A stretch of 34,223 nucleotides of DNA from Chrysochromulina tobinii (taxonomy: Eukaryota). The stretch covers positions 1 through 34,223 of the forward strand of contig JWZX01002320.1 in the NCBI GenBank assembly GCA_001275005.1, written 5' to 3'. Under the pieces are notes generated by a model. The model worked only from the letters and a program-made list of their open reading frames with translations, was not told the DNA's origin and made no database searches. Of this stretch, positions 5,236 through 29,633 are shown one piece after another (the first letter of the stretch is position 1; each line of letters starts with the position of its first letter). A program made the translations under genes and the position numbers.

Positions 5236-6132
5236 TCACGACGGCGCTCCGCCCTCCACCCCCGCTGGCCCTCCACCCCCCGGCGGCATGTCGTCGTATA
5301 CAGTGTGGATGCTCAGCCCGGTCTCTCGTCGAGCACCGCCGCCGCCCCCCCCCACGATCGTGTGGGTGGGCAGCTTGCCGCCCTTGCGCACGCCCTTTGG
5401 GGCGGCCCCCTTAGCACCAGTGCCGGGCGCAGCGGCGGCCGGGTCGACGACGGTCGCGCCATCGCGTAGCAGCAGCACGTCGGCGTCCCGCAGCTGCAGC
5501 GGGTGCGCGCCAATTTTGGGACAAGTTCGTATTTTGGGCTCGTCCCATTTTAGGGCGGCGACGAAGGCGGGAGTGAGGCTCTTCGCGCCCACCTGATGGC
5601 AGAGCCACACAAAGGCACTCAGCGGCACTCAGACGCACTCAGGCGACGAAGGCAGGAGTGAGGCTCACCGTCGGTGGCTTGGCGAGGGAGAGCCGGGTGC
5701 GCTCGACGCCACAGACGGCGCTCAGCGCGTCTACGAGCTGCTCGGTGCTCCAACTGGTCTGGGCGCACAGCGTACCTGATGAGGGAGGCAATCAGAGGTC
5801 ATTAGAGGCCATGAGAGGTCATTAGAGGTCATCAGGTGCTCCATCTCGTTTGAGGCACATGACGTACCGCCACGTCGCACGATAACCGTGCTCTGGCCAG
5901 ATGCCGGCAGCGGCGGGGCCGGCGGCGGCGGCGGGGCTGCCTTCGCGCTGGCGACCGTCGTGCCCGGGGGCAGGCGTGCATCGGCGCTTGATTCCGAGGG
6001 CAGCGGCGGAGGGGCGAGGGCGCCGTGCGGGGCGAGGGCGGCGCTCGGCTTCGCTCCAAGCGCCTGCCGTACGGCTGCTACAAAGTCGTCCTCGGTGTCG
6101 GCGGTCGGCGCGTCTGATCTCTCACTACTACT

Positions 6133-6164
<32 letters not shown>

Positions 6165-9100
6165 TTGCACCGCCGCCGCTAGCACCGCTGCTCGCACCCG
6201 CACCCTCCTCAGCGCCGGCGCTGCTGCCCAGCACGGCGCTGCTGCCCAGCAACTGCCACCGAATGAGCAATGCCTCTTCGGTGAGCGACTCGGCGTGGCT
6301 GAGCTCCTGCACGGCAATCTCCTTATCCTCGAAGCCGCCCGTCATCGCCTGGCGCACCTGATGAGGAAGGCAATCCGAGCTTATTAGCAGGGACATAGGA
6401 GTCCTCTCTTAATCAGAGGTCATCAGAGGCCATCCGACCAATCAGAGGCACTCACTGCGCACTGTCTTCGCATCACGGAGGAGTCCTCTCTTAATCAGAG
6501 GTCATCAGAGGCAGGCCCTCGCTGCGCACTGTCTTCGCATCACGGAGGAGCCCTCCTGTTCGTGCGCCAGAGCGCTTGAAGAGCCGCAATGCGCTCGCCG
6601 ACGTCGCCAAGCTCAACTGACCGTTGGCGCTCAGGGCGCTATAGAGGCGACGCTTGAGCTCGCCGATCTTGAGATTCTCGGAGATTGCGAGCTCGCAGCA
6701 CGCGTCTCCCGATCGAAGTTTGGTGGCGAGAGGGTCGGAACCACCAAACTCGGAGCCACGCTCCACCGCCGCGGGCGCCGTCGCGGGCGATGGTGGCTCA
6801 CCCGCATCGCCCCCCTCACCCCCCTCATCCCCCTCACCCCCCTTTCCGGCCGCCCCGGTGGATAGGATGCCACTCCCCGCGCCAGCGTGCGCCCGTTCGC
6901 ACAAAAAGGCTCTTACGAGGACCTCATCCTTACCTGATGAGGGAAGCAATCAGAGATGTCATTAAGGGCCATCATCCTCACCAAGGGGCGCGCCTCGCCT
7001 GATGAGGGAAGCAATCAGAGGTCATTAAGGGCCATCATCCTCACCAAGGGGCGCGCCTCGCCTGATGAGGGAAGCAATCAGAAGTCACTAAGGGCCATCA
7101 TCCTCACCAAGGGGCGCGCCTCGCTCGACGTACACCGATGAGCCATCAGTGAGCCCGGCACCCCCAGGCCCCGATCCGAGCGGCGTCCCCTCCTCGTTCT
7201 TGAGATGCGACCTGATGAGGGAGGCCATCCGAGGTCAGCTGAGGTCATCCGAGGTCATCTGAGGTCATCTGAGGTCATCCGAGGTCATCCGAAGTCATCC
7301 GAGGTCATCCGAAGTCATCCGAGGTCATCCGAGGTCATCAGTGGCAATTAGTGGCGATTACCCCTTGGCCGCCCGTCGAAGGCGCAGCTGGCCGAGCGCC
7401 GTCGTGGGCACACCGAGCCGGCGCGCAATCTCCGCCTTGAGCTCCGCGAGCGTCTGCCGCCCGTCAACGGTCACCGTGTGCGCTGCCGCGAGCGCTGTGA
7501 ACGTGTCCGGTTCGAGCGGCGCTGTGACGAATTCCAATGGGCCCTCAGCGTCACGGGTTACGTCAACGTCGACGCCCAGTGCGGCAGCGCCCTCCGCATC
7601 GATCGGCTCGGCAGCCCCGGGTGCGAGCGCCGTGTCGAGCGCATTGAACGTGATGGTCATTCGATGGCGGGCACTCTCGCGTCGTCGCAGCAGCTCGCTC
7701 GGCGCGTCCGCCGTCACAGCCGCCTCGATCCATAACTCGTCCCCGGGCCGCACGCGCAGCCCTCCAAGTGTACACGTGGCATCCGTCATAGCCGGGAGTG
7801 ACGAGAGGACTCCCTCCCCCTCCTCTCCCACCTCCTCGTTGTCGTCGTTGAGGATGCGCCGCATCTTGGACGGTGGCGGCGGCGCCGACGTGAGCAACGA
7901 CCACGACCCATCGCTCCCGATGCGCACGATCCGCTGTACAGGCGCCGCCACCCCCAAGCGAGCCTCCACGACGGCGCGCAGATCGGCGAGCGACGCGTGG
8001 TTTGAACGGCCGTTGGGCACGCACAGGAGCTGCACAGGCCCTTCGATGCCCTCGTCGTAGGGCAAGGCGTCGCTCAGCACGGCAGCGGCGGCGGTGCCGT
8101 TGCTGTCGTTGTTGTTGTTGTTGTTGGTGGTGCTGCTGCTGATCATGGTGCTACTGATGGTGCTCATGTTGCTTGGAGGGAGGGCAGTGCTGACGTCAAG
8201 ATCGCCGGCCACCGCGCTGCTGACGCTGCCGGCCCCAGCGCCGTGATGAGCACCGCCGCCTTCGGCCGCCGCGAGACGCATCCGCTCGAGCTCGGTGAAG
8301 GCGGGCGTCGGGACTTTGTCCGGTGCCGCCGCCCCCTCCGCAGCCCCCTCCGCCGCCGCCGCCGCCTCCACCTCTTGGGACGTCGGGCACGCCGTCGTGG
8401 GCACCGAGGGCGCCCAGCGGCGCACGCGTAGGTACAGATCGTCCGGCGTGGGGGCTGGCCACGTGGCAGCGGCGGTTTCGGCCGAGCGCCTTTCGAAGAG
8501 CACGGCCGCGCGGGGGGCGAGGCAGAGCGTCGAGAGTGTCTGCTTCGCCTCCGCATCGAGCTCCGAGTTCGTCAACGGCTGCTCGGGCGTACCGTGCAGC
8601 GGATCCCATCGGCGCAGGCGCACCTGATGAGGGAGGCAATCAGACCTCATTAGAGCCAATCAAGGACGTGCAGAGGATCCCATCGGCGCAGGCGCACCAG
8701 CTGGCCGCTGCGCACGCGCACGCTACCGGCCGCATCAGGTGGCGAGACGCTCGCGCCGTCGTGAGCACTCGCGCCGTCGTGAGCGCCGTCCGGCCGTGCG
8801 GCGACGTGTGAACTGACAGCCCCCCCGTGTGAATTGACAGCCCCCCCGGCTGCTGGAGCGGCTGCTGACGGTGGGCCCGTCGCCGGCGACGTGGCTAGCC
8901 GAGCTTGCGCGCTGAGGAGCCTGAGAGCCGCGTCCGCATGCGAGCGATCTCCGCCGAGCTCGAGGGCGAGCTTGACGAGATCCGGTTCCGTCAATGCATG
9001 CTTCGAGCTCAACGAGGCGAGCACCGCTGGGAGATCGGGCGCGAGATCGGGCGCGGGCGTCGTGTCGGCAGCGAGCGCGGACGCGCAGATCTGCGGCAGC

Positions 9101-11147
9101 TCCGCCGCGGGCGTGTCTGCATGCAGCTGGATCGTGACCTCGCGCGCGAGATCGTCCGCGGGCACGACCGTGAGGTGGACGATCATCGCCGCCTGCTGCT
9201 TCCACAAACGCACCTGCGCGGCCTCCGCCTCGTCCGCCTCAATCTCAGCCGCGAGCGGCGCGGGGGGCGAGGGCACCTGATGAGGGAGGCCATCAAATGT
9301 CATCAGAGGCGATCAGAGGTCATCAGAGGCAATCAGAGGTCATCAGAGGCAATCAGAGGTCATCAGAGGCAATTAGAAGTCATCAGAGGCAGTTCGGGGG
9401 CGAGGGCACACCTCCCCGCCCTCCCACGGGGACGTGCTCCCAGGCGCAATCAAAGGTCATCAGAGGCAATCAGAAGTCATCACCTCCCCGCCCTCCCACG
9501 GGGACGTGCTCCCGGGCGGCCGCCGCCGATACACGAGCAGGTACGCATTGCGCCCCGAGTCGAGTCCGCCACCCGCGGGGCAAGGTTCGCCATGACCTGC
9601 CGCACTCTCGACATCGGCTTCTGTCGCAGCGGTTACATTCGTGTCATTGAACTCGTGCCAGCTCGAGCCAGTGCCGCGGCGTAGTAATGCTGTGTAGTGC
9701 CCTCCCTGTGCCGAGCCGGCATGCATTAGCGCACCCACACAGTCATACCAAACCTCCTCGTCGGCCGCCGGAGCAGCGCCCACCGCGGCGCCCACCGCAG
9801 CGTCTGCCGCTGCCGCGTCTGCCGCTGCCGCGTCTACCGCTGCCGCACCGGCGCCGGCGCCACCGCTGCCGCCGCCGCCGCCAACGGCGCCGGCGACGTG
9901 CTTGACCGCCTCGGGTGGAATGGGCGGTTCGGCTACATACGGGCCTAGGTTGAGGCACAGGGGAAAGGCGACGCGGTGGTTGAGTTTCTTGCGACGTAAC
10001 GTGGCGAAGTCGAACGTGAAGCGCTTGAGCTGCAGCATGAGAAGGGGCGGTAGCTTCGAGGGCCGGACACCCTTGAGCGCGGGCACCTGATGAGGGAGGC
10101 GATCAGACGTCATTAGAGCCAATCAGAGGCTAATCAAGGGTCGGACGCCTCCTTGAGCGCGGGCACCTGATGAGGGAGGCAATCAGACGTCATTAGAGCC
10201 AATCAAGAGGAGCGCGGGCACCTTCTCGTTGCACACGTCGCATCGCCAGCAGTTGTCGCCGTCGAGCGTCTCCCACGCCGTGTACTCGCGCAGCGCCTGC
10301 TCAAGCGAGATCGCAAGAGATACGTCCAGCGCAAGGTCGCAGTACGCTTCCTCCCGCGTCGAGCGTCGTCCGCACCTGATGAGGGAGGCAATCAGACGTC
10401 ATTAGAGCCAATCAAGGTCGCAGTACGCTTCCTCCCTTGTCGAGCGTCGTCCGCACCTGATGAGGGAGGCAATCAGAGGCCATTCGAGCTAAACAGGGGC
10501 CACTCAGTACTTGAGGCATCGGAGCGTCGAGGTGAGCACCTGATGATGAGGGAGGCAATCAGAGGTCATTAGAGGCCATCAGAGATCATTAGAGCGCACT
10601 TGAGGCATCGGAGCGTCGAGGTGAGCATCCCTTCGAAGAGCTCGCGCTCGATGGCGACGCCGTACTTGGCCAGGGCCGTGAAGAGCACGCGGCACAGCTC
10701 CTGCACGTCGTGCTGCCGAAACGACTCGGCACGCGACCAGCCAAAGGAGGCCGTGAGCGAGCGCGTCGAGACGGCCTGGCACGACGTGAGCTGCAGTTGC
10801 GTGAAGAGTCGCGCGAGCTGGAGTGGCACGCACGCGTCCGCCGGGCCGTGCACGGCCTCGCCCTCGTACGAGAACGCGAACACCTCGCGCCGCACCTCGG
10901 GCAGGAGGAACAGCGCCTGGATCAGGCTGTTAAGGTAGCAGGTCGCGCCCTCGTTCGTAAGCCCACAGAAGGGCTGATCCTCGCGCCGCCCCTCGAACCA
11001 CGAAGCCGGGCGGCCCGTGCCCTTGTCGCGAGCGATGCGGACCGCGAGCAGGCGTGCAGCCTCCCTCGCCGTCGCCAGCGAAGCCTCGCGTGCTTCGCTC
11101 TCTCGCTCTGTGAGCGATTGTCCTCGCTCGGTGGGAGGAGCGCTCAT
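5236..11147 (-). CDS. Ubiquitin carboxyl-terminal hydrolase (USP/C19), USP47/USP40-like with ubiquitin-like domains; 10 exons
   Basis: Exons 11147-10600, 10375-10222, 10086-9484, 9276-8698, 8623-7362, 7211-7108, 6933-6530, 6357-5868, 5775-5669, 5592-5236. All junctions are GT-AG and phase-consistent. Cys box GLTNEGATCYLNSLIQALF, QHDVQELCRVLF, finger CxxC pairs (CLKC, CDVC), LQLKRF, His box MHAGSAQGGHY..WHEFND, NAYLLVYRR. UBL-like TLAELKAEIARRLGV. The C-terminal LRDADVLLLRD..RRETGLSIH resembles the USP47 tail. Alternative ATG at 11192. Confidence 0.9.
5593..5668 (-). other. USP intron 9 (family A-like; contains a copy of downstream exon sequence)
   Basis: GTGAGC...GCCATCAG. Internal GAGCCTCACTCCTGCCTTCGTCGCC matches exon 10 with 1 mismatch. 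Confidence 0.8.
5776..5867 (-). other. USP intron 8 (family A)
   Basis: GTACGT...CTCTGATTGCCTCCCTCATCAG. The 5' part is a decayed copy of the exon 9 start. Confidence 0.85.
6358..6529 (-). other. USP intron 7 (family A)
   Basis: GTGCGC...CCTTCCTCATCAG. Contains a copy of the exon 7 end (CTCCTCCGTGATGCGAAGACAGTGCGCAG). Confidence 0.8.
6934..7107 (-). other. USP intron 6 (family A; three tandem units)
   Basis: GTGAGG...CTTCCCTCATCAG occurs three times, separated by 17-nt copies of the exon 6 end. Confidence 0.85.
7212..7361 (-). other. USP intron 5 (family A; 10-nt satellite body)
   Basis: GTAATC...(GGATGACCTC)n...GCCTCCCTCATCAG. Splicing restores a UBL-like domain (RRAAKG|SHLKN). Confidence 0.85.
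8624..8697 (-). other. USP intron 4 (family A)
   Basis: Starts with a ~31-nt copy (1 mismatch) of the exon 5 start, GTGCGCCTGCGCCGATGGGATCC. Ends CTGATTGCCTCCCTCATCAG. Confidence 0.88.
9277..9483 (-). other. USP intron 3 (family A)
   Basis: GTGATG...GGCCTCCCTCATCAG. The body consists of CTCTGATGAC/CTCTGATTGC units plus a copy of the exon 3/exon 4 junction. Confidence 0.88.
10087..10221 (-). other. USP intron 2 (family A; two units)
   Basis: GTGCCCGCGCTC at the intron start equals the exon 3 start. Internal CATCAG|GTGCCC at 10167/10166. Splicing gives CNEK|VPALKG. Confidence 0.9.
10376..10599 (-). other. USP intron 1 (family A; three units)
   Basis: Splicing gives LRCLK-CGRRSTREEAYCDLALDV. 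Contains copies of both flanking exon ends. Confidence 0.9.
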
Positions 11148-16357: not shown

Positions 16358-16691
16358 CCGCCCGGCCGTGGCGTGTCTTGTAAGTGTCCGGCCAGCCGAG
16401 CGCGCGGGTCCCGGTCGCTGCCGCGCCACGGCGCGGCACCCACCGACGCTACTTGACCCTCTGACGTCTGACCCGGGCCCATCAGCAGCATCGCGGGGCC
16501 CGGCCCACGGGGACGGCGCACCGGGATGTCGCGCTCATCAACCAGGCAGCTTGAGAAGTTTGATGAAACGCACGTATTACGTGGCACCGTTACAAGTTTA
16601 CCGGTCTGGTCCATTTTTAGTTCGGGACGTACGATGTGGGCCCCGGAGTCTTCAGGCCGCGGAATCCAAGCTGGAAGCCGTGCCCGCGGCA

Positions 16692-19600
16692 ATGGCGGCG
16701 GCCGCTCCACGGGAGGCCAGGAGCGGCCCACCGGCTCCGGTTCAAGGGACGCCCACGTCTGCTCCTCCTCCGCAGCCCCCTGCTCCGCCGCCCGTGGTCC
16801 CAAACGGGACGCCGCCCGACCTCGCCCTCGCCTTCGCCGAGCTGGACGTGCCTGGCGGCCCTGCTTCCCTGCCTCCGTCGCACCGCCACTCGATGAACCT
16901 GGGATTCGCGAGAGAGGTGGCGCGCCTTCACGTGGGTGCGCCCGTCATGCGTGCCGCCGAGGCGAATCGACGCTTGGTGCATGAGCTCGCCCAACGCGCC
17001 TCCGCCGCGCCCTCTTCCCTTTCGTCGTTGGTGGAGATTTGCCGCCAGTACTTGAGCTGCTGTGCTCAGGACTTGGCCCCTCTCGCGTGCGGGCTTGAGG
17101 CGCCATGCCGCGAGCTGCTCAGCTACGCCAGCACGATCGGCGCGGAGGACGCTGCCAGGCTCGAAGCCGACTTTCGCGCTTCCGTGAGCGCCGCGCGGCT
17201 TGAATCCCCGCCCATCCCCAGCCCCGCTCCCCCGTCACCCTCCCCCCCTCGTATGCCTGCCCATCCCCGCCCCCCACCCCCGCGACGAGGTCGTCTTTGG
17301 CTGCATCACCGCCTGTCCTGCCTGTTTCGTGCAGGTCGAGCTCAACGTCCACGGCTGCGCCGTCTCGCGCGCGGCCGCGCTGAACGACGAGTTTGTCGCC
17401 TACCTTCGGCTCGTCTACCCTCCCGTCTCCGGCGAGTGCCTCTTCTCTCCGGGCGCCGAGGCCTTGGACGCGCACTGCGAAGGCTACCTCCGGCTGGCGT
17501 GCGACCTCCGGGCGAGCTTTGAAGGCGACTCCCCAGCAGCCTCTGCCCCGGCCCTGCCCGACTGCGGCTTCGAGGAGCGCTGCCGCAGCTACCTGCATCA
17601 CGCGGATCCGACCTCGGCGACGCGGCTGGCCACAGCCACGGCGGCCGAAGCGGGCCCACCGCCTGTTGCCCCGGCCGCCGCCCCGCACCCTGCCGCCGCA
17701 TCTTCTCCTCTGCCCCCCGATCCGGACGCCCAACGCGCGTCACGGCAGCGATGGGCAGCGGCGCTCGCCCACCTTCGTCCGCGTCTGAGCGGCGGCGCTT
17801 CAGCCCCCGACAGTGCAGGCGCCTTCTCCTTCTCGCTCCCACCGTCGCGTCAGCCCTCGGGCCGAGCATCGTGCCCGCCGTCGCGCCAGCCTAGTGAGGC
17901 CGCACGCCAGCCGATGGCGGCCGAGACCGAGGCGGAGGTGCCGCGCGAGATGTGCCCCGTGTGCGACTGCGAGCCGGCCGACTTCATCCCATCGTGCGGC
18001 CACGCCACGTGCTCCGACTGCGCCATTCGGATGCTGCGCGCAGCGTGCGACGACCAGAGGTCGGCCCTGGACGCGAGCGGCTTTGCGTGTGTGCAGCGGT
18101 GCGAGCGCCGCATCGGCCCCAACGACGTGGAGCCGCTCCTCACAGACCCCGCCAGCAGCCGTCTGAGCGCGATCCGGGGTGGCGCGCCCGATCCTGGTGC
18201 GCAGTTTGGCGGGCGGGGGGCTGATGGAGCGCTCGGGCTGAGCTACGAGGAGTATGAGCGCTTCCGCCAGTTTGTGCTTCAGGCGTCCATCCCCGTCGAC
18301 GAGCGTGTCCACTGCCCCAGGTGCGAGCGGGCCTCGGCGCGGGCCGATGTCACCACCGATGGCGGCGGCGGCGGCACGCGCGGGCTGCGCTGCCCACACT
18401 GCCAGCACTGCTGGCGCCCGGACGCGACGGACGCGCAGGGCCCGTCCACGACGGCGACGGACGCGTACATTGGCGCCACCAGCCGGCAGTGCCCCAACTG
18501 CGACGTGCCGGTCACCAAGTGGCACGGCCACAGCTGCCACCACATCTCGCCGCAGACCAACGGCTGCCCCAACTGCCACCAGCACTTTTGCTATGTGTGC
18601 CTCCACAAGCACGGCCGGCCCGGCGAGCGCGCGTTCCACAGCGAATGCGCCCACCACCAAACCTTTTGCCGATTGGACGACATCGGCCTTCACCTCGGCA
18701 TGGAGCCGTACCCGCACGACGTGCGCTGCGGCTGCCCCATTTGCCCCGACTGTCGGAGGGGCGTGCCGTGCGAGCTGTGCGACGGGGGCTGCGTGGTGTG
18801 CCGCGGCCTCGTGCCCCCGGGGCCGACGGAGCTCGCAACGCCGGCGGCCGCGTGCACGGTCGCGGGCTGCGTGGTGCACGACGAGGCCGCGGCGGCCAGG
18901 TGCCGGAGGCGCGAGGCGGAGCTGCAGTGGGCGGAGCGGCAGCGGCCGACGCAGGGTGCTGAGGTGTACCATGCCGTCGTCCCGGAGGGCGTCACGACGC
19001 TCGAGGCAGGGTACTTTCGTGGGCGGCGGGATCTACGGTCGGTGGCGCTGCCGGCGAGCCTGACGCGCATCGGCGATCGCGCGTTTCAAGGCTTCCACTC
19101 GCTCGCACTGGGGGAGCTGCCCGCGTCCCTCACGAGCATCGGCGATGACGCCTTCGCCGGGTGCTCCTCCCTCGCGCTGAGGGAGCTGCCCGCGTCCCTC
19201 ACGAGCATCGGCGATGACGCCTTCTACGGGTGCTCCTCCCTCGCGCTGAGGGAGCTGCCCGCGTCCCTCACGAGCATCGGCGGTGGCGCCTTCTTTGAGT
19301 GCTCCTCCCTCGCGCTGAGGGAGCTGCCCGCGTCCCTCACGAGCATCGGCGATCGCGCCTTCAACGGGTGCTCCTCCCTCGCGCTGAGGGAGCTGCCCGC
19401 GTCCCTCACGAGCATCGGCGATGGCGCCTTTGACGGGTGCTCCTCCCTCGCGCTGGGAGAGCTGCCCGCGTCCCTCATAAACGTCGGCGATTGGGCCTTC
19501 CGCGGGTGCTCTTCCCTCGCGCTGAGGGAGCTGCCCGCGTCCCTCACGAGCATCGGCGATGGCGCCTTTGACGGGTGCTCCTCCCTCGCGCTGGGAGAGC

Positions 19601-20742
19601 TGCCCGCGTCCCTCACGAGCATCGGCGATTACGCCTTCGCCGGGTGCTCCTCCCTCGCGCTGGGGGAGCTGCCCGCGTCCCTCACGAGCATCGGCCGTGG
19701 CGCCTTCAACGGGTGCTCCTCCCTCGCGCTGAGGGAGCTGCCCGCGTCCCTCACGAGCATCGGCGATCGCGCCTTCTTCGAGTGCTCCTCCCTCGCGCTG
19801 AGGGAGCTGCCCGCGTCCCTCACGAGCATCGGCCGTGGCGCCTTCAACGGTTGTACCATGGTTGTCCCGGAGGGCGTCACGACGCTCGAGGCAGGGTACT
19901 TTCGTGGATGCCGGGACCTACAGTCGGTTGCGCTGCCGGCGAGCCTCACGCGCATCGGCGATCGCGCGTTTGAAGGCTTCCACTCGCTGGCGCTGAGGGA
20001 GCTGCCCGCGTCCCTCACGAGCATCGGCGATCACGCCTTCGAAGGGTGCTCCTCCCTGGCGCTGAGGGAGCTGCCCGCGTCCCTCACGAGCATCGGCAAT
20101 CGCGCCTTCTTCGGGTGCTCTTCCCTCGCGCTGGGGGAGCTGCCCGCGTCCCTCACGAGCATCGGCGAGAGCGCCTTCGATGGGTGCGCCTTCGCTGTCG
20201 TCCGGAAGGGTGTCATGATGCTCGAGGAATGGCACTTTTGTAGGCGGCGTGACCTACGGTCGGTGGTGCTGCCCGCGTCCCTCACGAGCATCGGTTGGGG
20301 CGCCTTCCACGGGTGCTCTTCCCTCGCGCTGACGGAGCTGCCCGCGTCCCTCACGAGCATCGGCGATGGCGCCTTCGCCGGGTGCTCCTCCCTCGCGCTG
20401 GGGAAGCTGCCCGCGTCCCTCACGAGCATCGGCTATCGCGCCTTCTACGGGTGCTCCTCCCTCGCGCTGAGGGAGCTGCCCGCGTCCCTCACGAGCATCG
20501 GCGGTGGCGCCTTCTTTGAGTGCTCCTCCCTCGCGCTGAGGGTGCTGCTAAGCTCCTTCTTGAGGGCAGGGGGGGGAGGGTTTCGCTGGGCCGGGCGACT
20601 GCTACTGCTATCTCTTTTGTTGCGCGCTTGTATTGACGCCTCCGTGTTCTGGCTCTCCATCGCTCTCACTCTCGCTGCTGGCGCTGCTGCCGTTGCTCCG
20701 TCCTCTGTGCATTCGATTCTCCGTCACGTGTTAGCAGTGTGA
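16692..20742 (+). CDS. RBR (RING1-IBR-Rcat) E3 ubiquitin ligase fused to BspA/TpLRR-type leucine-rich repeats with a hydrophobic C-terminus; exons 16692-17183 and 17335-20742
   Basis: Canonical intron GTGAGC...CTGTTTCGTGCAG (17184-17334) joins two ORFs in phase. RING1 CPVC..CGHATCSDC..C..RC; IBR-like HCPRC..RCPHCQHCW; Rcat-like QCPNC..K..GHSCHHI..CPNC..HFCYVC; extra Cys-rich region; LRR units LALRELPASLTSIGxxAFxGCSS. Start uncertain (16563, 16692 or 16893). Confidence 0.85.
17184..17334 (+). other. Conventional (non-repetitive) spliceosomal intron
   Basis: GTGAG donor, pyrimidine-rich TGCAG acceptor, resolves the frame change. Lacks the family A/B cores and exon copies. Confidence 0.75.
18976..20541 (+). 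repeat. Tandem array of ~20 69-nt LRR units plus 3 cap-like units
   Basis: The scaffold CTCGCGCTG(A/G)GGGAGCTGCCCGCGTCCCTCACGAGCATCGGC......GCCTTC...GGGTGCTCCTCC recurs with a 69-nt period. Confidence 0.95.
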
Positions 20743-21333
20743 CATCATCAGCGTAAACGCATCCAAGGCGTGGCAGTGCGGCAGCGGCAGTGAGGCAGCA
20801 GCGGTGTGGCAGTTTGTGGCAGCAGCGGCAAGTGGCAGGTGCGGGGCAAGACCGGGCGGGGATGGTCAATCAATGTGTCGCGCGTGCGTTCGTGCGGGTG
20901 CGGGGGTCTGGGGCACGCATCGCGGGGTTGCCGCCAGGGGGGTCGTTCAGAGCGAGCGTCGGGTATAATAGAGGCCAGCCTTGGTAGCTTCGGGTAGGAT
21001 GGTTTTGAAATGTTTATCATTTTTACGCATCCAACGACGATGCTGTAGAGATCAGGCATACCCCGTGCGTAGCCTAGTCGTGCCTCTCGTCTAGACGGAG
21101 CATCAACCTCCTCGCCACCTAACCTGCTAAACCAGCATGTTGATCCACCTACGCTGTACACAATTCATTATAGTTACGATGCACACGGACCGCCACGTCT
21201 GTGGGGAGTGGGCCGACCGCGCCGAGCGGGTCTGCCCGCACCCACGCCGCCCCAGTAATATCCCATGGTGTCACGCATCCGAATCATGTCTAGCGCCGTA
21301 GTGACTCAAAGTCGGCGGGGCTCTCGCGACTTG

Positions 21334-22832: not shown

Positions 22833-24204
22833 ATGGTTCTCGGAGCCAGTGCGCTCTTCCTTCTGCTCGAGTACCTGCAATTCTATCGTGACACGCTTCA
22901 AAACCGGCATTATCTCAAATATCCCAACAACGCCGACGTCGATGGCTCCATAGCCTTTCATACCTGGCCACCCGGGGCGAATGCGATGACGATGGCTGGC
23001 CAGAGGCGACTTGACCACACCGTTGCGATCATCGCAACGGCGATCGCCGATGGCATCCCAGGACATTTCATCGAGACGGGCGTGTGGCGTGGTGGTATGT
23101 CCTTCATGGCCGCGAAGGCGCTCGAGGTGCTTGCGACCATTGAGACGGAGCGTACTGGAGTGGCAACGCCTCCGCGCCTGGTGTACCTGTGCGACAGCTT
23201 CGCCGGAATTCCGGAGCAGACATCGTACGGTCGCGGCCGAGACCATGTGCACCCCGCCTCGGGCCTGGATCGCAAAGCGCACGCATTCGGCATCCTGAAC
23301 GACAACTCGGTGGACAGGGTGCGAGAGGATGCTGCGAGGGTGAATCTCGGGCCGACGCTACGCTGGGTGCCCGGCTATTTCAACGAGTCGTTGCCGCGGT
23401 TGGCGCGCGAAGAGCCCTCGCTCACCTTCCTCACGATTCGACTCGACGGCGATGCGTATTGGTCCACCTACGAGGCGCTCACCGTGCTCTACCCGAGGCT
23501 CTCGCCAGGTGCGGACCGCTGATGACGTCTGATTGCGTGGATCACATCTGATGGCCACTGATTGCATCTCTACCCGCCGCCCTTGGCAGGCGGGTTCGTC
23601 ATCATCGACGACTTTACAGATTGGACTACCTGCCGCGAGGCGGTCGACAGGTACCGCGCCGAGCAGCGCATCGCTGATGACCACTGATTGCGTTGATGAC
23701 ATCTGATTGCGCGAGGCGGTCGACAGGTACCGCGCCGAGCAGCGCATCACAGCGCCGGTCGTACTCGTGCCGCACAAGCGAAACGAGGTCGTGCGGGGCG
23801 CCTATTGGCGGAAGCCCAGGGAAGGATCCAAATTAGGCAAAGGACAACCCGAGCATTCCAAATTAGGGTCACCCCCGCCGCTGTGCGTCGGGGATGGCGG
23901 GCACGGAGCTGTCCGGGTACCTGGCAGCTACAACCCTTCGAACGCGGTGCCAGTCGGACCGCCTGCAAGCGTGTGGAGCTCTCCAGCAACGAACTCGTGG
24001 AAGCTCGAGCAGTACGTGCCGCCTGCGCAGATCTACATGTGCACGAAGAGTGAGGCCGAGGAGGCGCTCGAGACGATCGACAAGCCGGCTCCAACGGCCG
24101 ACGCTCAGGAGAGCGAAGTAGACAGGCGCCGAAGGCAAAAGCTTCAACTGCAGAGCGCAGCGTTGCGTGGAAGCAGCAAGAGCGTGGAGCTGCGCGCCTT
24201 GTAG
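22833..24204 (+). CDS. TylF/MycF/NovP-family (macrocin-type) SAM-dependent O-methyltransferase; exons 22833-23508, 23590-23650, 23727-24204
   Basis: Motifs WP..AMTM.G..RL, IPGHFIETGVWRGG, VYLCDSFAGIP, VPGYFNESLP, IRLDGDAYWSTYEALTVLYPRLSPG|GFVIIDD, CREAVDRYR, GAYWRK. Hydrophobic N-terminus. Confidence 0.92.
23509..23589 (+). other. TylF-like gene intron 1 (family A-like core)
   Basis: GTGCGG..CTGATGACGTCTGATTG..CTGATGGCCACTGATTG..TTGGCAG. Splicing restores LSPGGFVIIDD. Confidence 0.88.
23651..23726 (+). other. TylF-like gene intron 2 (both splice sites derived from a 39-nt exon duplication)
   Basis: Perfect direct repeats at 23634-23672 and 23710-23748, each containing CAG|GTA, flank a 37-nt CTGAT-rich core. 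Confidence 0.9.
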
Positions 24205-24417: not shown

Positions 24418-26448
24418 ATGATGTTGCTCGTCATTGAGGTCTGCCTCAGCTCCTGGCGTACAGCGGGAGGCCTTGCCAAGCCCTTCCAGCGCATGGGCAG
24501 CACTCCCGTTGATGACGTGGAGTCGAGCTCGCTGGCTGCTCTTCCAACGTACACCGTGGATGGGTTGCCGCGTTTGCGCTTTGCGCGAGAGCTCTTATCC
24601 GCGGATACCGACGTGCTCCAGGAGCTGATCTGTGAGGAGGCTAGCTTTTGGAGCTTGCCGCTGTCCAAGACGCTGCTGCCGCGCCATGCTTTCCTGCGCG
24701 CCCGAGGGCTTCCACACGGATCCCACTTGCTGCGTGACCATCGACACGGGCTGCAGCAGCTCTTGCTTCGCCCGCAGTCAGACGCGCAGTTCGCCACCGC
24801 CGTCGCCAATCTTTCGAGTCCTGGGGTCCGGCCCTCAGAGCTGTGCCTCGACTTTGCCTCCTTTGCCAGCCGATTCCGAAAGGGTGGCTTCGACGCGGCA
24901 CGTGCGGGCGATACGGCCGTGCTCGAGGCCCTGCTTGCGCACGGCTGGTGTGCTCGCACCGCTAGGGACAAGCGCGGTGCCTCGGCGCTCCACTACGCAG
25001 CTGGGCACGGCCATGTCGAGTGCTGCGCGCTGCTCTGTGCGGCGGGCCTCGAGGTGGACGATCGAGCTCAAGACGGCGCGACGCCTCTGCACTGGGCGGT
25101 TGCGGGAATGACCTCAAGGGGCAACCCTCGAGATCGTGCTCACGACGGCGCTCCCCGTGCTGACGACCGACAAGGGCGGGACAGCGCGGGTCCAAATGGT
25201 TTCGGGACCGGCGGCCACTTAGGGATGGCCAAATGGCTCGTGGGCCGTGGAGCGGATGTGGGCGCGCAGACCGTCGATGGGAACAGTATCCTGCACTGGT
25301 GCGCGTGGGCAGGGACGCTCGAAGTTCTGACGTGGCTCACCGACCATATTAGGCAGCTGCAGCGGTCAGGTCTCGCCATGCACGGCGGCGGAACAAGTAC
25401 CACCAGCGACGGGTCCTGCTCGCTCAGCGGGGCGTCCCCTTCCAAATTAGACAAGAGGATGTCCGATTCTCTGAGTGTGCACGCGCTCAATCGCAACGGC
25501 TGCAGTGCGGCACACTGGGCTGCATCTGGCGGCGGGCTCGAGGTCTGCCAATGGCTCGCTGAAGAGCTCGAGCTCGACTTCTCGTTGCCTAATTTGGAAG
25601 GGAACACCCCGCTCACCAAGGCCATTGAGCATGGACGAGAGGAGATTGTGCGTGGATCGCCACTGATCGCCCATGAGTGCCACAGCTAATTGCCACTGAT
25701 GGCCACAGATGGCCACCGATTGCCACTGATTGCCACTGATTGCCACTGATCGCCCATGAGTGCCACAGCTGACGGCCACTGTTGGCCACTGATGGCCACC
25801 GATTTCCACTGATTGCCAATGATGCCAATGATTGCCACTAATTGCCACTGATTGCCACAGCTGATGGCCTCTGGCGGCCACTGATGAGTGCAGCTGAGTG
25901 CGGCTGAGTGCGCTGGCTCCTGATGACCTCTGATGACCTCTAATTGCCATCCTCATCAGGTGCGCTGGCTCCTGGTGAGCGGCAGTTGCGAGCCTACGCT
26001 CGCTGAGGCGGCTGGCTATGCGGCGCGGCTTGCCGCCCGGCATGCGGCCGAGGACACCACAGATCGCATCTCCGAGATGATGCAGAGCTATTTGCTCGCA
26101 CAGCATTATCTGACGCAGCAGCAGCAGCAGGAGGCAACGCCAATGCCGGGTGCGGACGACGCACCGCCAGATCTTGCGGAGATGACACCACCTGCCGATA
26201 ACAAGGCGCGTGAGGGCACGCGCGCGCCCGATACGGCTCCGAGGCACGCGCGCGCGCCCGATACGGCGCCCAGCGAGACGCTCGTGCGCCTCATTGACGA
26301 GGCTCTGAGGCACGAGCGCGCACGCAGTGTGGTGGCCGAGGAGCGAGCTGCGAGGCTCGAGGCCCAGCTGGCGCACGTGAGCAGGCAGCTCTTCGAGGCA
26401 CAGGCCAAGGCCATTGAGCTCCTGGAGCGCAGCACCAGTAGTAAGTAG
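24418..26448 (+). CDS. Ankyrin-repeat protein with C-terminal coiled coil; exons 24418-25647 and 25960-26448
   Basis: ANK motifs GASALHYAAGHGH, GATPLHWAV, GNSILHWCAWAG, GCSAAHWAASGG, GNTPLTKAIEHGREEI|VRWLL. The frame is open from ATG 24220, so the start is uncertain. Confidence 0.88.
25648..25959 (+). other. Ankyrin gene intron (family A; expanded CCACTGATTG-type array)
   Basis: GTGCGT...CTCTAATTGCCATCCTCATCAG. Internal copy GTGCGCTGGCTCCTG of the downstream exon start near 25908. Confidence 0.88.
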
Positions 26449-26698: not shown

Positions 26699-29633
26699 AT
26701 GTCATGGAGCTTGCCGACGCTGCTGCATGTCGTGTGCATGCTCCTATCATGGAGGCTAACTACCGAACAATATGCACAGAACCTGACATGCTGCACTTCA
26801 CAGAATTCGGAGTCTGGGCGCATCGGACGGTGCGACCATCTGGCACAGCACAATGGCTGCCGAACCGATTGGATCCGAAATCGCTGCCCTGTAGCGTGTG
26901 GAAATTGCAGCGTTTGCGACCCAACCAGGCGCGAGATTTACCAAAAGTTATACCTGCGGACGGCCCGCATGCGGGCCAAGGCTGCGCCGAGCGAGGTAGC
27001 GTACACCGAGAACATGAGCGTGCCATTGGATGAGGCCCGGAAGATGGCGATTCGCACGGGCAAGGAGCTGTCACGGCGCGCGCGCCGCCTGCTAGCCGAA
27101 GAAGTGATACGCGGGCTCTCGTTCTCGCACTACGTGGTCGATCCAGCGTTCGACATGCCGCTCACGCAGCCCATCTTCGACTTCGTTCGCTTTCGCCGCG
27201 GCCGCGCCGATCAGATCCGATGGCCTCGGTAATGGGAGGCCTGATTGCGTCCTATCAGATCCAATCGCTAATGGGAGGCCTGATTGTGTCCGATCAGATC
27301 CGAGATGGTGACGGGAGGCCTGATTGCGTCTGAGTGCCTCTGGAGGCGTAGACGTGCCGTTGAGTGCACCCTGATGACGTCTGATTGTCTCCCTCATCAG
27401 GCACGGCATCTCGTTGGGGGGCGTGGACGTGATGCGCAAGCTGGCTCAGCTGGTTGATGACATCCTCGAGCGTGGCATACGAGGGAGCTTTGTGGAAGCG
27501 GGCGCGTGGAAGGGCGCCAACGGCATCCTGGTGCGCAAATTGTTCGACGCCGCTAGCGACGTGGCCGACCAAATGCGCAAGGTCTACTCCCTCGACACAT
27601 TTGCCTGGTTCCCGAACAAGACGAACAGCACGTACTATGCGGATCGCGGCATCGTCGAGGGCTTCTACGCGTCCGGCCGCTGGCATCCTAACTTTTATGC
27701 CGACCTGCGCAAGGTGAAGCAGATCCACACCCAGTTCGGGATCAATCTCCAATACGGCGGCCTGAAGCTACTCGATGGAGACTTGGAGCAGCTCGCACCC
27801 GAGCTTGCCATCTCGCTACAGAGCGACGCCGAGAAGATTGCGCTGCTCGTCGTAGACACGAACCACTACAAGGGTACCTGGGAGACGCTGAAGGCACTCT
27901 ACGCCCATGTGGCACTCGGCGGCTATGTCCTTCTCGGCGACTACGGCTCGCCTCCGTCCCGGCGCGCGGCCGACGACTTCCGCGGCTGCATGGGCATCGA
28001 GTCGGAGCTGGTCTTCTTCTTGCCGCACGGCTCTCCGCACGGAAGGCACGGCAAGGCATACTGGAAGAAGACGGAGGAGCTGCCGCCTTCGAAGCGCTTG
28101 AACGCGCGGTGCGAAGCTATGCCTTCGTTGACGGTTGGGTTCGGTGCGAGCCAAGACGTGTCCTTCGTTGTCGCGCACGAGACCAAATTAGGCGAGGGTA
28201 AGGACTTCCCGCCCGTCATGCGGCTGGCACCCCTTACAGTCTCCGCGCGCCCAACAGCGCGCGAAGCCTTCAGCCGCGCAGCCAGATCGTGGAGCAGCGC
28301 CAAGGGTTCGTCATGTTTCGTCGACGTGCTGCTGTACGGCCTCATCCGATCGGACGCGATGCTCGAGTACACGACGCCGACGCTCCGCTCGCATGGGCTC
28401 GAGCCGTTGGAGGGCCACGGCTGCCTGCACGTGCATGCCTACTGCCTCGAGGCGCGTTGCAACATGTCCACTGCGAGCACGTTGCTACGACGCCTCGGAG
28501 CTGCGTCGTTGAACGTAACCGCCGCACTGCCACCCCCCGCACTGCTTGGGAAGCGCATCGAACTCGAGTGGAACGCGCGGGACCCGTCGTTGGATGCGAT
28601 AGCGCGGATGATCGCGAGGGATGCTCGCAAGCGACGCAGCGAAACCATCCATCGGTGGCGCTGTGGCGTGCACAGCCTGTCGCAGGCCTGGGCCGCTGCG
28701 CGACTGCACACGCCCGCCAAATACGGCGAGGCGCCCTCTGGCCTGGTGCTGGTCTGCCGGATCGATGCCGCCTTTGTGGCGAGACCAGCACCGATAGGGC
28801 ACCTTCCTAATATGGATCTGATCGATCACCTGTGGGCATCAGATGCGTGGGAGGCGCACGAGCGTCACACGGTTTTCGTGCCCGAGTTTCAGCACTATGG
28901 CGGTCTCAACGACCGTTTCGTCTTCGGCTCGGCAGCGGCTGTGGCCATGCTGATCTCCGCTCGCGAGGAGCAATCTCGACTGGGGGAGACTTTTGCGGAG
29001 CAAGCCATGTGCTCCGCCGTATTGGAACACAACCTGTCGGTGCGCACCACGACGATCAGTTTCGTACGCGTGCGCGACGACAACTCCATCCCACCCGTTG
29101 ATAGTGAGACGGTCCTGTCCAACGCCTCAGCGCTCGGCACAACGCCCGATACAAGGTGGTGGAACGGGCACAGCAACGGCATGTGCCTCAGCTGCGTGGG
29201 CCTCGCAGGCCGCTGCTTAGGAAGCGAAGAAGCGGCGGCTTACGGCCTCAACCCATACCACTCCTTCTGCCCCGGCCAACTGTGCCAGCTTCTCACGTCC
29301 ATGAACAGCCGCCTAGGGGCTCTCGTTGACAGAGCTCAGCTGGCCGGTCTTCACACGTTGGCCCGTTCACGGCCGGCCATGTTCGCAGCCTTCAATCGGC
29401 GAATCGCGCGCGGCACCAAGCGGACCGAGTCCATGTTAGGCAAGTCCAGCCCTCGGAGCCGCCGAGGGAAGATGAGGCAGCCCGAGAGGTCGACGCAGCC
29501 TAGCGACGCTCAAGTCGCGGACGCCAAGAAAGCACAGGCAGAGCTGGACGCCCTAGTGCACGCGGATCTCGAGCTCATAAACCAAGCCGAGCGGGAGAGC
29601 CGCCGTCGGTCTGTTCTGAGACCCATCTTCTGA
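26699..29633 (+). CDS. Secreted/membrane protein: ShK-like domain + TylF/MycF-like O-methyltransferase + putative glycosyltransferase-like domain; exons 26699-27228 and 27401-29633
   Basis: Hydrophobic N-terminus. ShK-like C..LAQHNGC.TDWIRNRCPVACGNC. TylF-like WPR|HGISLGG, IRGSFVEAGAWKG, VYSLDTF, IALLVVDTNHYKGT..LKALY..VALGGYVLLGDY, AYWKK. Second domain VLLYGLIRS..VLVCRIDAAF..VFVP..YGGLNDRFVFG. Start uncertain (26633, 26684 or 26699). Confidence 0.82.
27229..27400 (+). other. Family A intron in the ShK-TylF gene
   Basis: GTAATG...CTGATTGTCTCCCTCATCAG. Contains repeated copies of the upstream exon end (ATCAGATCC) and GGAGGCGTAGACGTG, similar to the downstream exon. Confidence 0.88.

What the first reader, a model, noticed from the sequence alone, without database searches (positions are those of the whole stretch)
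18976..20541. LRR array with a frozen scaffold and three hypervariable codons (RVD-like code)
Seen: across ~20 units the DNA is nearly identical even at synonymous sites, except ATCGGC-X1-X2-GCCTTC-X3. X1X2 = DR, DD, GG, DG, DW, DY, RG, DH, NR, ES, WG, YR; X3 = Q, A, Y, F, N, D, R, E, H. Changes fall mostly at codon positions 1-2 (X1 mostly NNT, X2 and X3 mostly NNC) and often give aromatic or charged residues, as in binding surfaces. Inference: concerted evolution plus strong diversifying selection, or targeted mutagenesis or repeat shuffling, producing a reprogrammable binding stripe, conceptually like TALE RVDs or lamprey VLRs. The NNY pattern recalls DGR mutagenesis of AAY codons, but no RT or template is present in this window.
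Basis: partly seen in the sequence, partly recalled or inferred. Interest (0 to 1): 0.8.

Follow-up and report, generated by a model that had tools for sequence, protein, structure and literature searches.

The report
Algal repeat sensor on ubiquitin ligase
An algal gene joins a predicted ubiquitin ligase to near-identical leucine-rich repeats that differ mainly at three positions, likely a swappable recognition module kept diverse by selection and repeat exchange rather than by a mutator, though repeat number and order differ between assemblies.

Summary
In detail: 20 BspA/TpLRR units of 69 nt, scaffold 95.5% identical, 59% of differences in 3 of 23 codons. Over 30 distinct units of this locus and a paralogue, those codons give omega about 4.4 (scaffold 0.38, p 2e-5). 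The array ends a spliced eukaryotic gene (likely haptophyte) with an RBR-like E3 module whose catalytic C-x-H is intact. The same cassette and N-cap sit on a kinase and on an ADP-ribosyltransferase in other proteins. A 98%-identical paralogue shares no whole unit. The DGR idea fails: no AAY template, scaffold adenines spared, no RT family found. The same three positions vary most in 72 unrelated high-identity BspA arrays, so this is no private code. Another assembly of this locus has 27 units in another order, so the window's order is unreliable. Best reading: concerted evolution plus diversifying selection, as in fungal het-e/het-d, in a candidate intracellular receptor without an NLR core. 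The scan noted a similar pattern in a marine phage. No ligand is known.

The parts
16692..17183 (+). Exon 1 from the likely start ATG (164 codons, no Pfam family); an in-frame ATG at 16563 is an alternative
   Evidence: Sequence; RNA contigs begin near 16635; no family
17184..17334 (+). 151-nt GT..AG phase-0 intron
   Evidence: RNA contig of run X16 joins 17183 to 17335; ends checked. The contig has 5 other letters and could come from a paralogue or another strain
17953..18102 (+). RING1-like zinc finger
   Evidence: Conserved Cys/His in alignment A1; Foldseek and Atlas hits to RBR ligases
18313..18402 (+). Shortened IBR-like domain: first zinc site kept, second missing; the paralogue L003 has an ankyrin insertion here
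   Evidence: Alignment A1; L003
18490..18813 (+). RING2/Rcat-like domain with G-H-S-C-H-H (predicted catalytic Cys at 18535-18537, His at 18541-18543) and a family-specific Cys-rich extension
   Evidence: C208 and H210 invariant in 14 of 14 aligned proteins; top Foldseek hits Parkin, ARIH2, RNF216
18976..20541 (+). BspA/TpLRR (Pfam LRR_5) array, 20 units with hypervariable X1, X2, X3; caps at about 18976-19047, 19861-19932 and 20197-20268
   Evidence: LRR_5 E 9e-126; units; AlphaFold pLDDT 92.7; best fold match 4FS7
20542..20742 (+). 66-aa tail to the stop, with a moderately hydrophobic stretch; whether it is coding is not shown
   Evidence: ORF; hydropathy up to 1.9; no family; no RNA contig over 20642-20808

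Best explanation
The array is the variable part of a spliced algal gene that joins a predicted RBR-type ubiquitin ligase to BspA-type repeats, and it likely acts as an intracellular recognition module whose three fast-changing residues per repeat are predicted to stack into one binding stripe. Shown: homogenised scaffold, excess amino-acid change at X1-X3, rapid turnover of units between paralogues, and the same cassette on other effector domains. Inferred: unequal crossing-over and gene conversion copy units within and between genes; ordinary point mutation supplies variants; selection keeps new X1-X3 combinations; a bound foreign protein (most plausibly from a giant virus or other parasite) would be ubiquitinated or would switch the ligase on.
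For: Omega X 4.38 vs scaffold 0.38 over 30 distinct units (21 nonsynonymous steps at X vs 13 synonymous in all, p 2.2e-5; window alone 5.15, p 4.4e-5). Paralogue L003 differs by only 7 synonymous and 10 nonsynonymous changes in 345 RBR codons (pS 0.028), yet shares 0 whole units and 2 of its 9 X triples. 9 four-gamete quartets between X2 and X3. On one consensus-like unit, 9 of 11 listed variant letters from 108 contigs of 4 runs fall in the 9 X bases, and two unit types absent from the window, L001 and L003 appear. The same repeat and cap follow a kinase (P0091) and an ART domain (P0074), both with ubiquitin-like tails; related LALTSLP arrays follow RING fingers (P0227, P0262). RBR identity. 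Precedent: fungal HNWD repeats (PMC1805685). Two BspA-LRR genes are up-regulated in virus-recovered Gephyrocapsa huxleyi (PMC12489294).
Against: No ligand, infection or localisation data for this gene. The same positions are the most variable in unrelated BspA arrays, and in 18 viral arrays omega X has a median near 1.2 (0.70-2.77), so part of the signal is low constraint. Against synonymous sites inside the X block only, the excess is weaker (all units p 0.042; window alone p 0.19). GC-rich codon bias could depress synonymous counts. The IBR lacks its second zinc site, Pfam finds no family in the RBR part, and that model is weak (pLDDT 63, best Foldseek E 9e-4). The paralogue has a stop in unit 6. 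Short-read assemblies can invent chimeric units (PMC12222747), which could inflate the four-gamete count.
Confidence: 0.6

Rival explanations
1. Relaxed constraint only: X1-X3 are the positions that any BspA repeat tolerates changing, recent duplications froze the rest, and nothing selects for diversity.
For: X1-X3 vary most in 72 high-identity and 40 divergent BspA arrays; omega X about 1 in most of 18 viral arrays; window-only local test not significant (p 0.19); stop codon in the paralogue's array.
Against: Neutral sites should vary like synonymous sites, but X sites carry 4-7 times more change. Other exposed positions that vary at 0.54-0.76 in divergent arrays are nearly fixed here. L003 alone has 13 nonsynonymous and 0 synonymous steps in the X block (p 0.009).
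Confidence: 0.15
2. Diversifying selection is real, but the module reads self or partner proteins (allorecognition, prey or symbiont handling, routine substrate choice) rather than pathogens.
For: The closest precedent, het-d/het-e, recognises a self protein (PMC1805685, PMC12222747). BspA proteins elsewhere are adhesins (PMC8714846). A hydrophobic tail exists.
Against: The effector partners (E3, kinase, ART) and BspA-LRR induction in virus-recovered haptophyte cells (PMC12489294) fit defence. No signal peptide is evident in exon 1 (by eye, not predicted by a tool).
Confidence: 0.15
3. A programmed or very fast somatic shuffling of units (VLR-like) makes cells of one culture carry different arrays.
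For: Two assemblies of one locus have 20 and 27 units in different order with near-identical flanks; P0021 has one more unit than P0004.
Against: Every window 31-mer of the array is in L001, and for k 41-99 the two differ at one junction, as expected from alternative paths through one repeat graph. Short reads are known to fail on such arrays (PMC12222747). No donor units lie outside the array in the window.
Confidence: 0.07
4. A DGR-like retroelement mutates adenines of a template and writes them into X1-X3.
For: NNY codon pattern; scaffold adenines vary slightly more than other bases (5.3% vs 0-2.3%); one YADD motif at about 20755 on the minus strand.
Against: No AAY-AAY-GCN-TTY-AAY in the window or L001-L003; the best candidate template unit has A at only 45% of its differences. 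Five scaffold adenines per unit are 95% fixed. Third-position changes occur (GAG, TGG, GAA, CAA). The YADD frame is 67 aa with no Pfam match, 0.45 expected by chance. DGRs are prokaryotic or viral (recalled).
Confidence: 0.03

Closest known systems
Fungal HNWD/NLR genes with high internal conservation (Podospora het-d, het-e; PMC1805685, PMC4986451, PMC12222747)
   Same: Near-identical repeats under concerted evolution, a few codons per unit under diversifying selection, exchange among paralogues, variable effector domains, unreliable short-read assembly.
   Different: BspA LRR instead of WD40/ANK/TPR (PMC4986451 found no LRR in fungal NLRs); no NACHT or NB-ARC; an enzyme is fused directly to the repeats; alga, not fungus.
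BspA/TpLRR surface proteins, including the hypervariable Flavobacterium psychrophilum LRR locus (PMC10392669; called BspA-like in PMC8714846) and Trichomonas BspA (PMC2843621)
   Same: Repeat class (LRR_5; 4FS7, 4GT6, 6MLX), a few hypervariable positions per unit on one side, recombination among units.
   Different: Those are secreted or surface proteins. Here the array is fused to predicted cytosolic enzymes and has a LALxELP strand instead of LTSITIP.
Ectocarpus ROCO LRR and NB-ARC-TPR candidate receptors (PMC3341825)
   Same: Algal candidate immune receptors with shuffled repeats and positively selected exposed sites.
   Different: There each repeat is an exon; here all units lie in one exon, and there is no ROC-COR.
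Dictyostelium and giant-virus FNIP LRRs with a variable di-residue (PMC10392669, PMC9525666)
   Same: Two adjacent hypervariable residues between G and F, likened in print to TALE RVDs.
   Different: Another LRR class; three to four variable positions here; no cipher shown in either.
RBR E3 ligases (Parkin, ARIH2, RNF216)
   Same: RING1, IBR-like and RING2 order with C-x-H.
   Different: Shortened IBR, protist-type Cys-rich extension, C-terminal LRR array.

Membership tests
BspA/TpLRR repeats | 23-aa C/NxxLxxIxLxxxLxxIgxxAFxx repeat, Pfam LRR_5 | tested here: met
   413.9 bits vs cut-off 27.7; the I of LxxIxL is R/G here
BspA/TpLRR repeats | Fold of solved TpLRR proteins | tested here: met
   pLDDT 92.7; ranks 1-6 of Foldseek are 4FS7, 4GT6, 4FD0, 4FDW, 6MLX
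RBR E3 ligase | RING1, IBR and RING2 in order | tested here: inconclusive
   RING1 and RING2 patterns present, IBR lacks its second zinc site; no Pfam hit for P0003; Foldseek and Atlas point to RBR
RBR E3 ligase | Catalytic Cys-x-His in RING2 | tested here: met
   C208/H210 invariant in 14 of 14; equivalence to the G-C-x-H motif is recalled
RBR E3 ligase | Thioester transfer of ubiquitin | not testable with these tools
   Needs an assay
HNWD-like high-internal-conservation receptors | Repeat identity above 85% over 100 aa or more | tested here: met
   Mean 90.5% nucleotide identity over 16 units; 84% mean amino-acid identity over all pairs of 15 units, higher for neighbours; threshold from PMC4986451
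HNWD-like high-internal-conservation receptors | Few codons per unit under diversifying selection | tested here: met
   (counting method, not a likelihood site model)
NLR/STAND | Central NACHT or NB-ARC domain | tested here: not met
   None in the ORF or exon 1
Diversity-generating retroelement target | Template repeat differing only at adenines | tested here: not met
   (window and L001-L003 only)
Diversity-generating retroelement target | DGR-type reverse transcriptase in the genome | not testable with these tools
   No genome held; none among 18 different window frames scanned
TALE-like programmable repeats | One unit specifies one ligand letter | not testable with these tools
   No ligand known
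Lamprey VLR-like | Somatic assembly from flanking donor cassettes | tested here: inconclusive
   No units outside the array in the 34-kb window; rest of genome unavailable

The most novel reading that the evidence does not exclude
Haptophyte algae carry a family of NLR-free intracellular immune receptors in which one exchangeable BspA repeat cassette, recombining across loci and diversified at three residues per unit, is plugged onto different effectors (RBR ligase, kinase, ADP-ribosyltransferase, RING) to recognise giant-virus or parasite proteins, with unit order changing fast enough to differ within a culture.
Probability: 0.25. Interest if true: 0.8.

Novelty: new variant of a known kind. 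Interest (0 to 1): 0.5.

Why it matters
How bloom-forming microalgae recognise their viruses is open (PMC12489294 states that antiviral mechanisms are poorly known and lists BspA-LRR genes among those induced). This gives a concrete candidate with a testable readout: ubiquitination that depends on X1-X3. It extends the het-e style of diversification to an LRR fold and to an alga. A scaffold that is invariant except for three exposed residues is also a natural template for engineered binders. The caveat matters too: short-read arrays of this type cannot be read as a code.

Tried and rejected
Whole-genome search: no genome held. DGR: rejected. Exact scaffold pattern in viral contigs: 0 matches; degenerate pattern in prokaryote genomes: 0; viral protein relatives are only 33-55% identical, so no sign that the cassette is viral or bacterial contamination. 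Search of representatives with cap plus two units was swamped by long generic BspA proteins of 34-45% identity and found no family member among 150; the medium-length search likewise gave at most 61%. Summed read depth over the repeat (about 7000 vs 43 on a flank) was not used as copy number. Missing RNA cover over the tail is not evidence. Profile A1 against the PDB was dominated by lectin domains of the homologues. The primary TpLRR structure survey was not held. My first flank comparison had an offset error and was redone.

Full report
Context. The window is eukaryotic: a PIG-T/Gpi16 gene, a ubiquitin-specific protease in pieces and a GPS-motif protein, and an intron joined in RNA. A haptophyte is likely but not shown. 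No whole genome is held.

The gene. The array is the 3' part of one long exon. A contig of poly(A) run X16 skips 17184-17334 (GT..AG), joining an upstream exon in frame. That contig could belong to a paralogue. A 187-nt contig of RNA run X13 matches the third cap without differences; the paralogue L003 lacks that cap. RNA libraries can hold DNA, so transcription of this exact locus is likely, not proven. Upstream of the array lies a Cys-rich region. Pfam finds nothing in it, but 16 relatives were found. In an alignment of 14 sequences the RING1 and RING2 ligands and G-H-x-C-H-H are invariant or nearly so. The model is weak (pLDDT 63), yet the first ten Foldseek ranks are all RBR ligases (best E 9e-4), and the Atlas's best hits are RBR/IBR clusters at 0.92. 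The IBR lacks its second zinc site. I call it RBR-like.

The observation. 20 units of LRR_5 form three capped blocks. The scaffold is 95.5% identical, the X codons 57%; they hold 59% of differences. The R/G/T codon is almost as variable as X1 in pairwise terms but has few alleles. AlphaFold gives a regular solenoid (pLDDT 92.7) closest to 4FS7. The longer strand falls on LRSV/SLAL, and short bridges flank X1X2 and include X3. With a strict 23-residue period each X position should stack into a ladder (inference). A passage in PMC13117327 says TpLRR strands lie on the convex side, which would put IGxxAFx towards the concave side. I could not measure this.

Selection. I counted the minimum steps among observed codons per site, which needs no tree. 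For 30 distinct regular units from the window, L001 and L003 (cap-adjacent units left out): 21 nonsynonymous steps at X, 11 in the scaffold, 13 synonymous in all; omega 4.38 and 0.38; p 2.2e-5. Each set alone gives 5.2-7.0. Against synonymous sites within the 15-nt X block the excess is weaker: p 0.042 pooled, 0.19 window, 0.086 L001, 0.009 L003. Nine four-gamete quartets between X2 and X3 indicate exchange or recurrent change. Laying four runs on one unit, 9 of 11 listed variants fall in X codons; new types HQ-A (wild run X16) and FG-Y (culture run X2) appear. These may belong to other paralogues.

Controls against uniqueness. Of 320 proteins held, those with six or more regular units were sorted. 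In 72 non-family arrays of at least 70% internal identity the within-protein difference is 0.73, 0.83, 0.80 at X1-X3, 0.60 at the next residue and at most 0.43 elsewhere. In 40 divergent arrays other exposed positions reach 0.54-0.76. The set is biased by its similarity to the query. At DNA level, 18 of 32 viral loci had five or more distinct units (13 too few, 1 duplicate): omega X 0.70-2.77, median about 1.2, scaffold 0.17-0.52 (saturation lowers the older ones). So the positions are generic to BspA repeats, and the strength here is at the extreme. Hypervariable positions on one side of F. psychrophilum LRRs, and a TALE-like di-residue in Dictyostelium LRRs, are in print (PMC10392669).

Paralogues and modularity. 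L003 is 98.1% identical over 1698 nt but has other flanks, an ankyrin insertion in the IBR, a second ankyrin copy upstream, 17 units and a stop in unit 6. With pS 0.028 in the RBR region, it shares no whole unit and 2 of its 9 triples. P0091 (kinase, array, ubiquitin-like) and P0074 (ART, array, two ubiquitin-like domains) carry the same repeat and a closely similar cap at 70-74% identity; their organism is unknown. P0227 and P0262 join a RING finger to a related repeat. No NACHT or NB-ARC was found in any of these.

Assembly caveat. L001 is the same locus (one indel in 3949 nt of 3' flank; 9 differing columns 5', six near its contig end and two matching L003) but has 27 units with two blocks in swapped order and three extra unit types. 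All window 31-mers are in L001, and for k 41-99 one junction differs. The window is probably a collapsed path. PMC12222747 shows short reads omit or create such repeats. True polymorphism is not excluded.

DGR. No template, no adenine specificity, no RT family; the single YADD is within chance. The NNY pattern follows from selection acting on first and second positions (inference).

Mechanism and verdict. It works like the fungal het-d/het-e sensors (PMC1805685: unit exchange plus four selected codons) but is not an NLR. Defence is inferred from the effector partners and from two BspA-LRR genes induced in virus-recovered G. huxleyi (PMC12489294, Table 1 passage); nothing ties this gene to infection. 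Searches listed no paper on BspA-RBR fusions or hypervariable BspA arrays in haptophytes; the library is open-access only. New variant of a known kind; interest 0.5.

Papers seen: passages of PMC1805685, PMC12489294, PMC2843621, PMC3341825, PMC13117327, PMC4986451, PMC8714846, PMC9525666, PMC11674859, PMC11953307; abstract and section 14 of PMC12222747; passages and sections 6-7 of PMC10392669. No supplements were read; those of PMC12489294 may show whether its BspA genes are of this type. DGR range and the RBR catalytic motif are recalled.

Noticed in passing
L003 4418-4710 and 6466-6865: A roughly 300-nt ankyrin module occurs twice in the paralogue at high identity: upstream of the gene body and inserted in frame between the halves of the IBR-like domain, absent in the window.
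   Followed up: partly
L003 7948-7950: In-frame stop in unit 6 of 17, present in three database proteins (P0004, P0020, P0021); the 11 units after it keep an open frame and variable X codons.
   Followed up: partly
L003 3275-4288 and 8917-9975: The paralogue is flanked by an alpha-kinase gene and an RI-like LRR gene.
   Followed up: no
window 17914-18813: The RBR-like module with a Cys-rich extension forms a protist family with diverse partners (C-type lectin, TPR, kinase, ankyrin) that Pfam barely detects.
   Followed up: partly
window 5785-5835, 7221-7339, 9286-9391, 10552-10594, 25655-25886: Arrays of 10-nt units (GAGGTCATCA-like) between coding pieces, apparently inside introns of the protease and other genes.
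   Followed up: no
window 20730-20770 (-): A YADD motif in a 67-aa frame just downstream of the gene; no Pfam match, within chance.
   Followed up: yes
window 22833-23522 and 27414-29633: Two TylF-type O-methyltransferase genes lie close together.
   Followed up: no
P0204-P0318, P0036-P0146, L007-L035: Many bacterial, archaeal, trichomonad and viral BspA arrays show the same homogenised scaffold with variable IG-x-x-AF-x-x positions; L007 (25 units) and L012 reach omega 2.5-2.8.
   Followed up: partly
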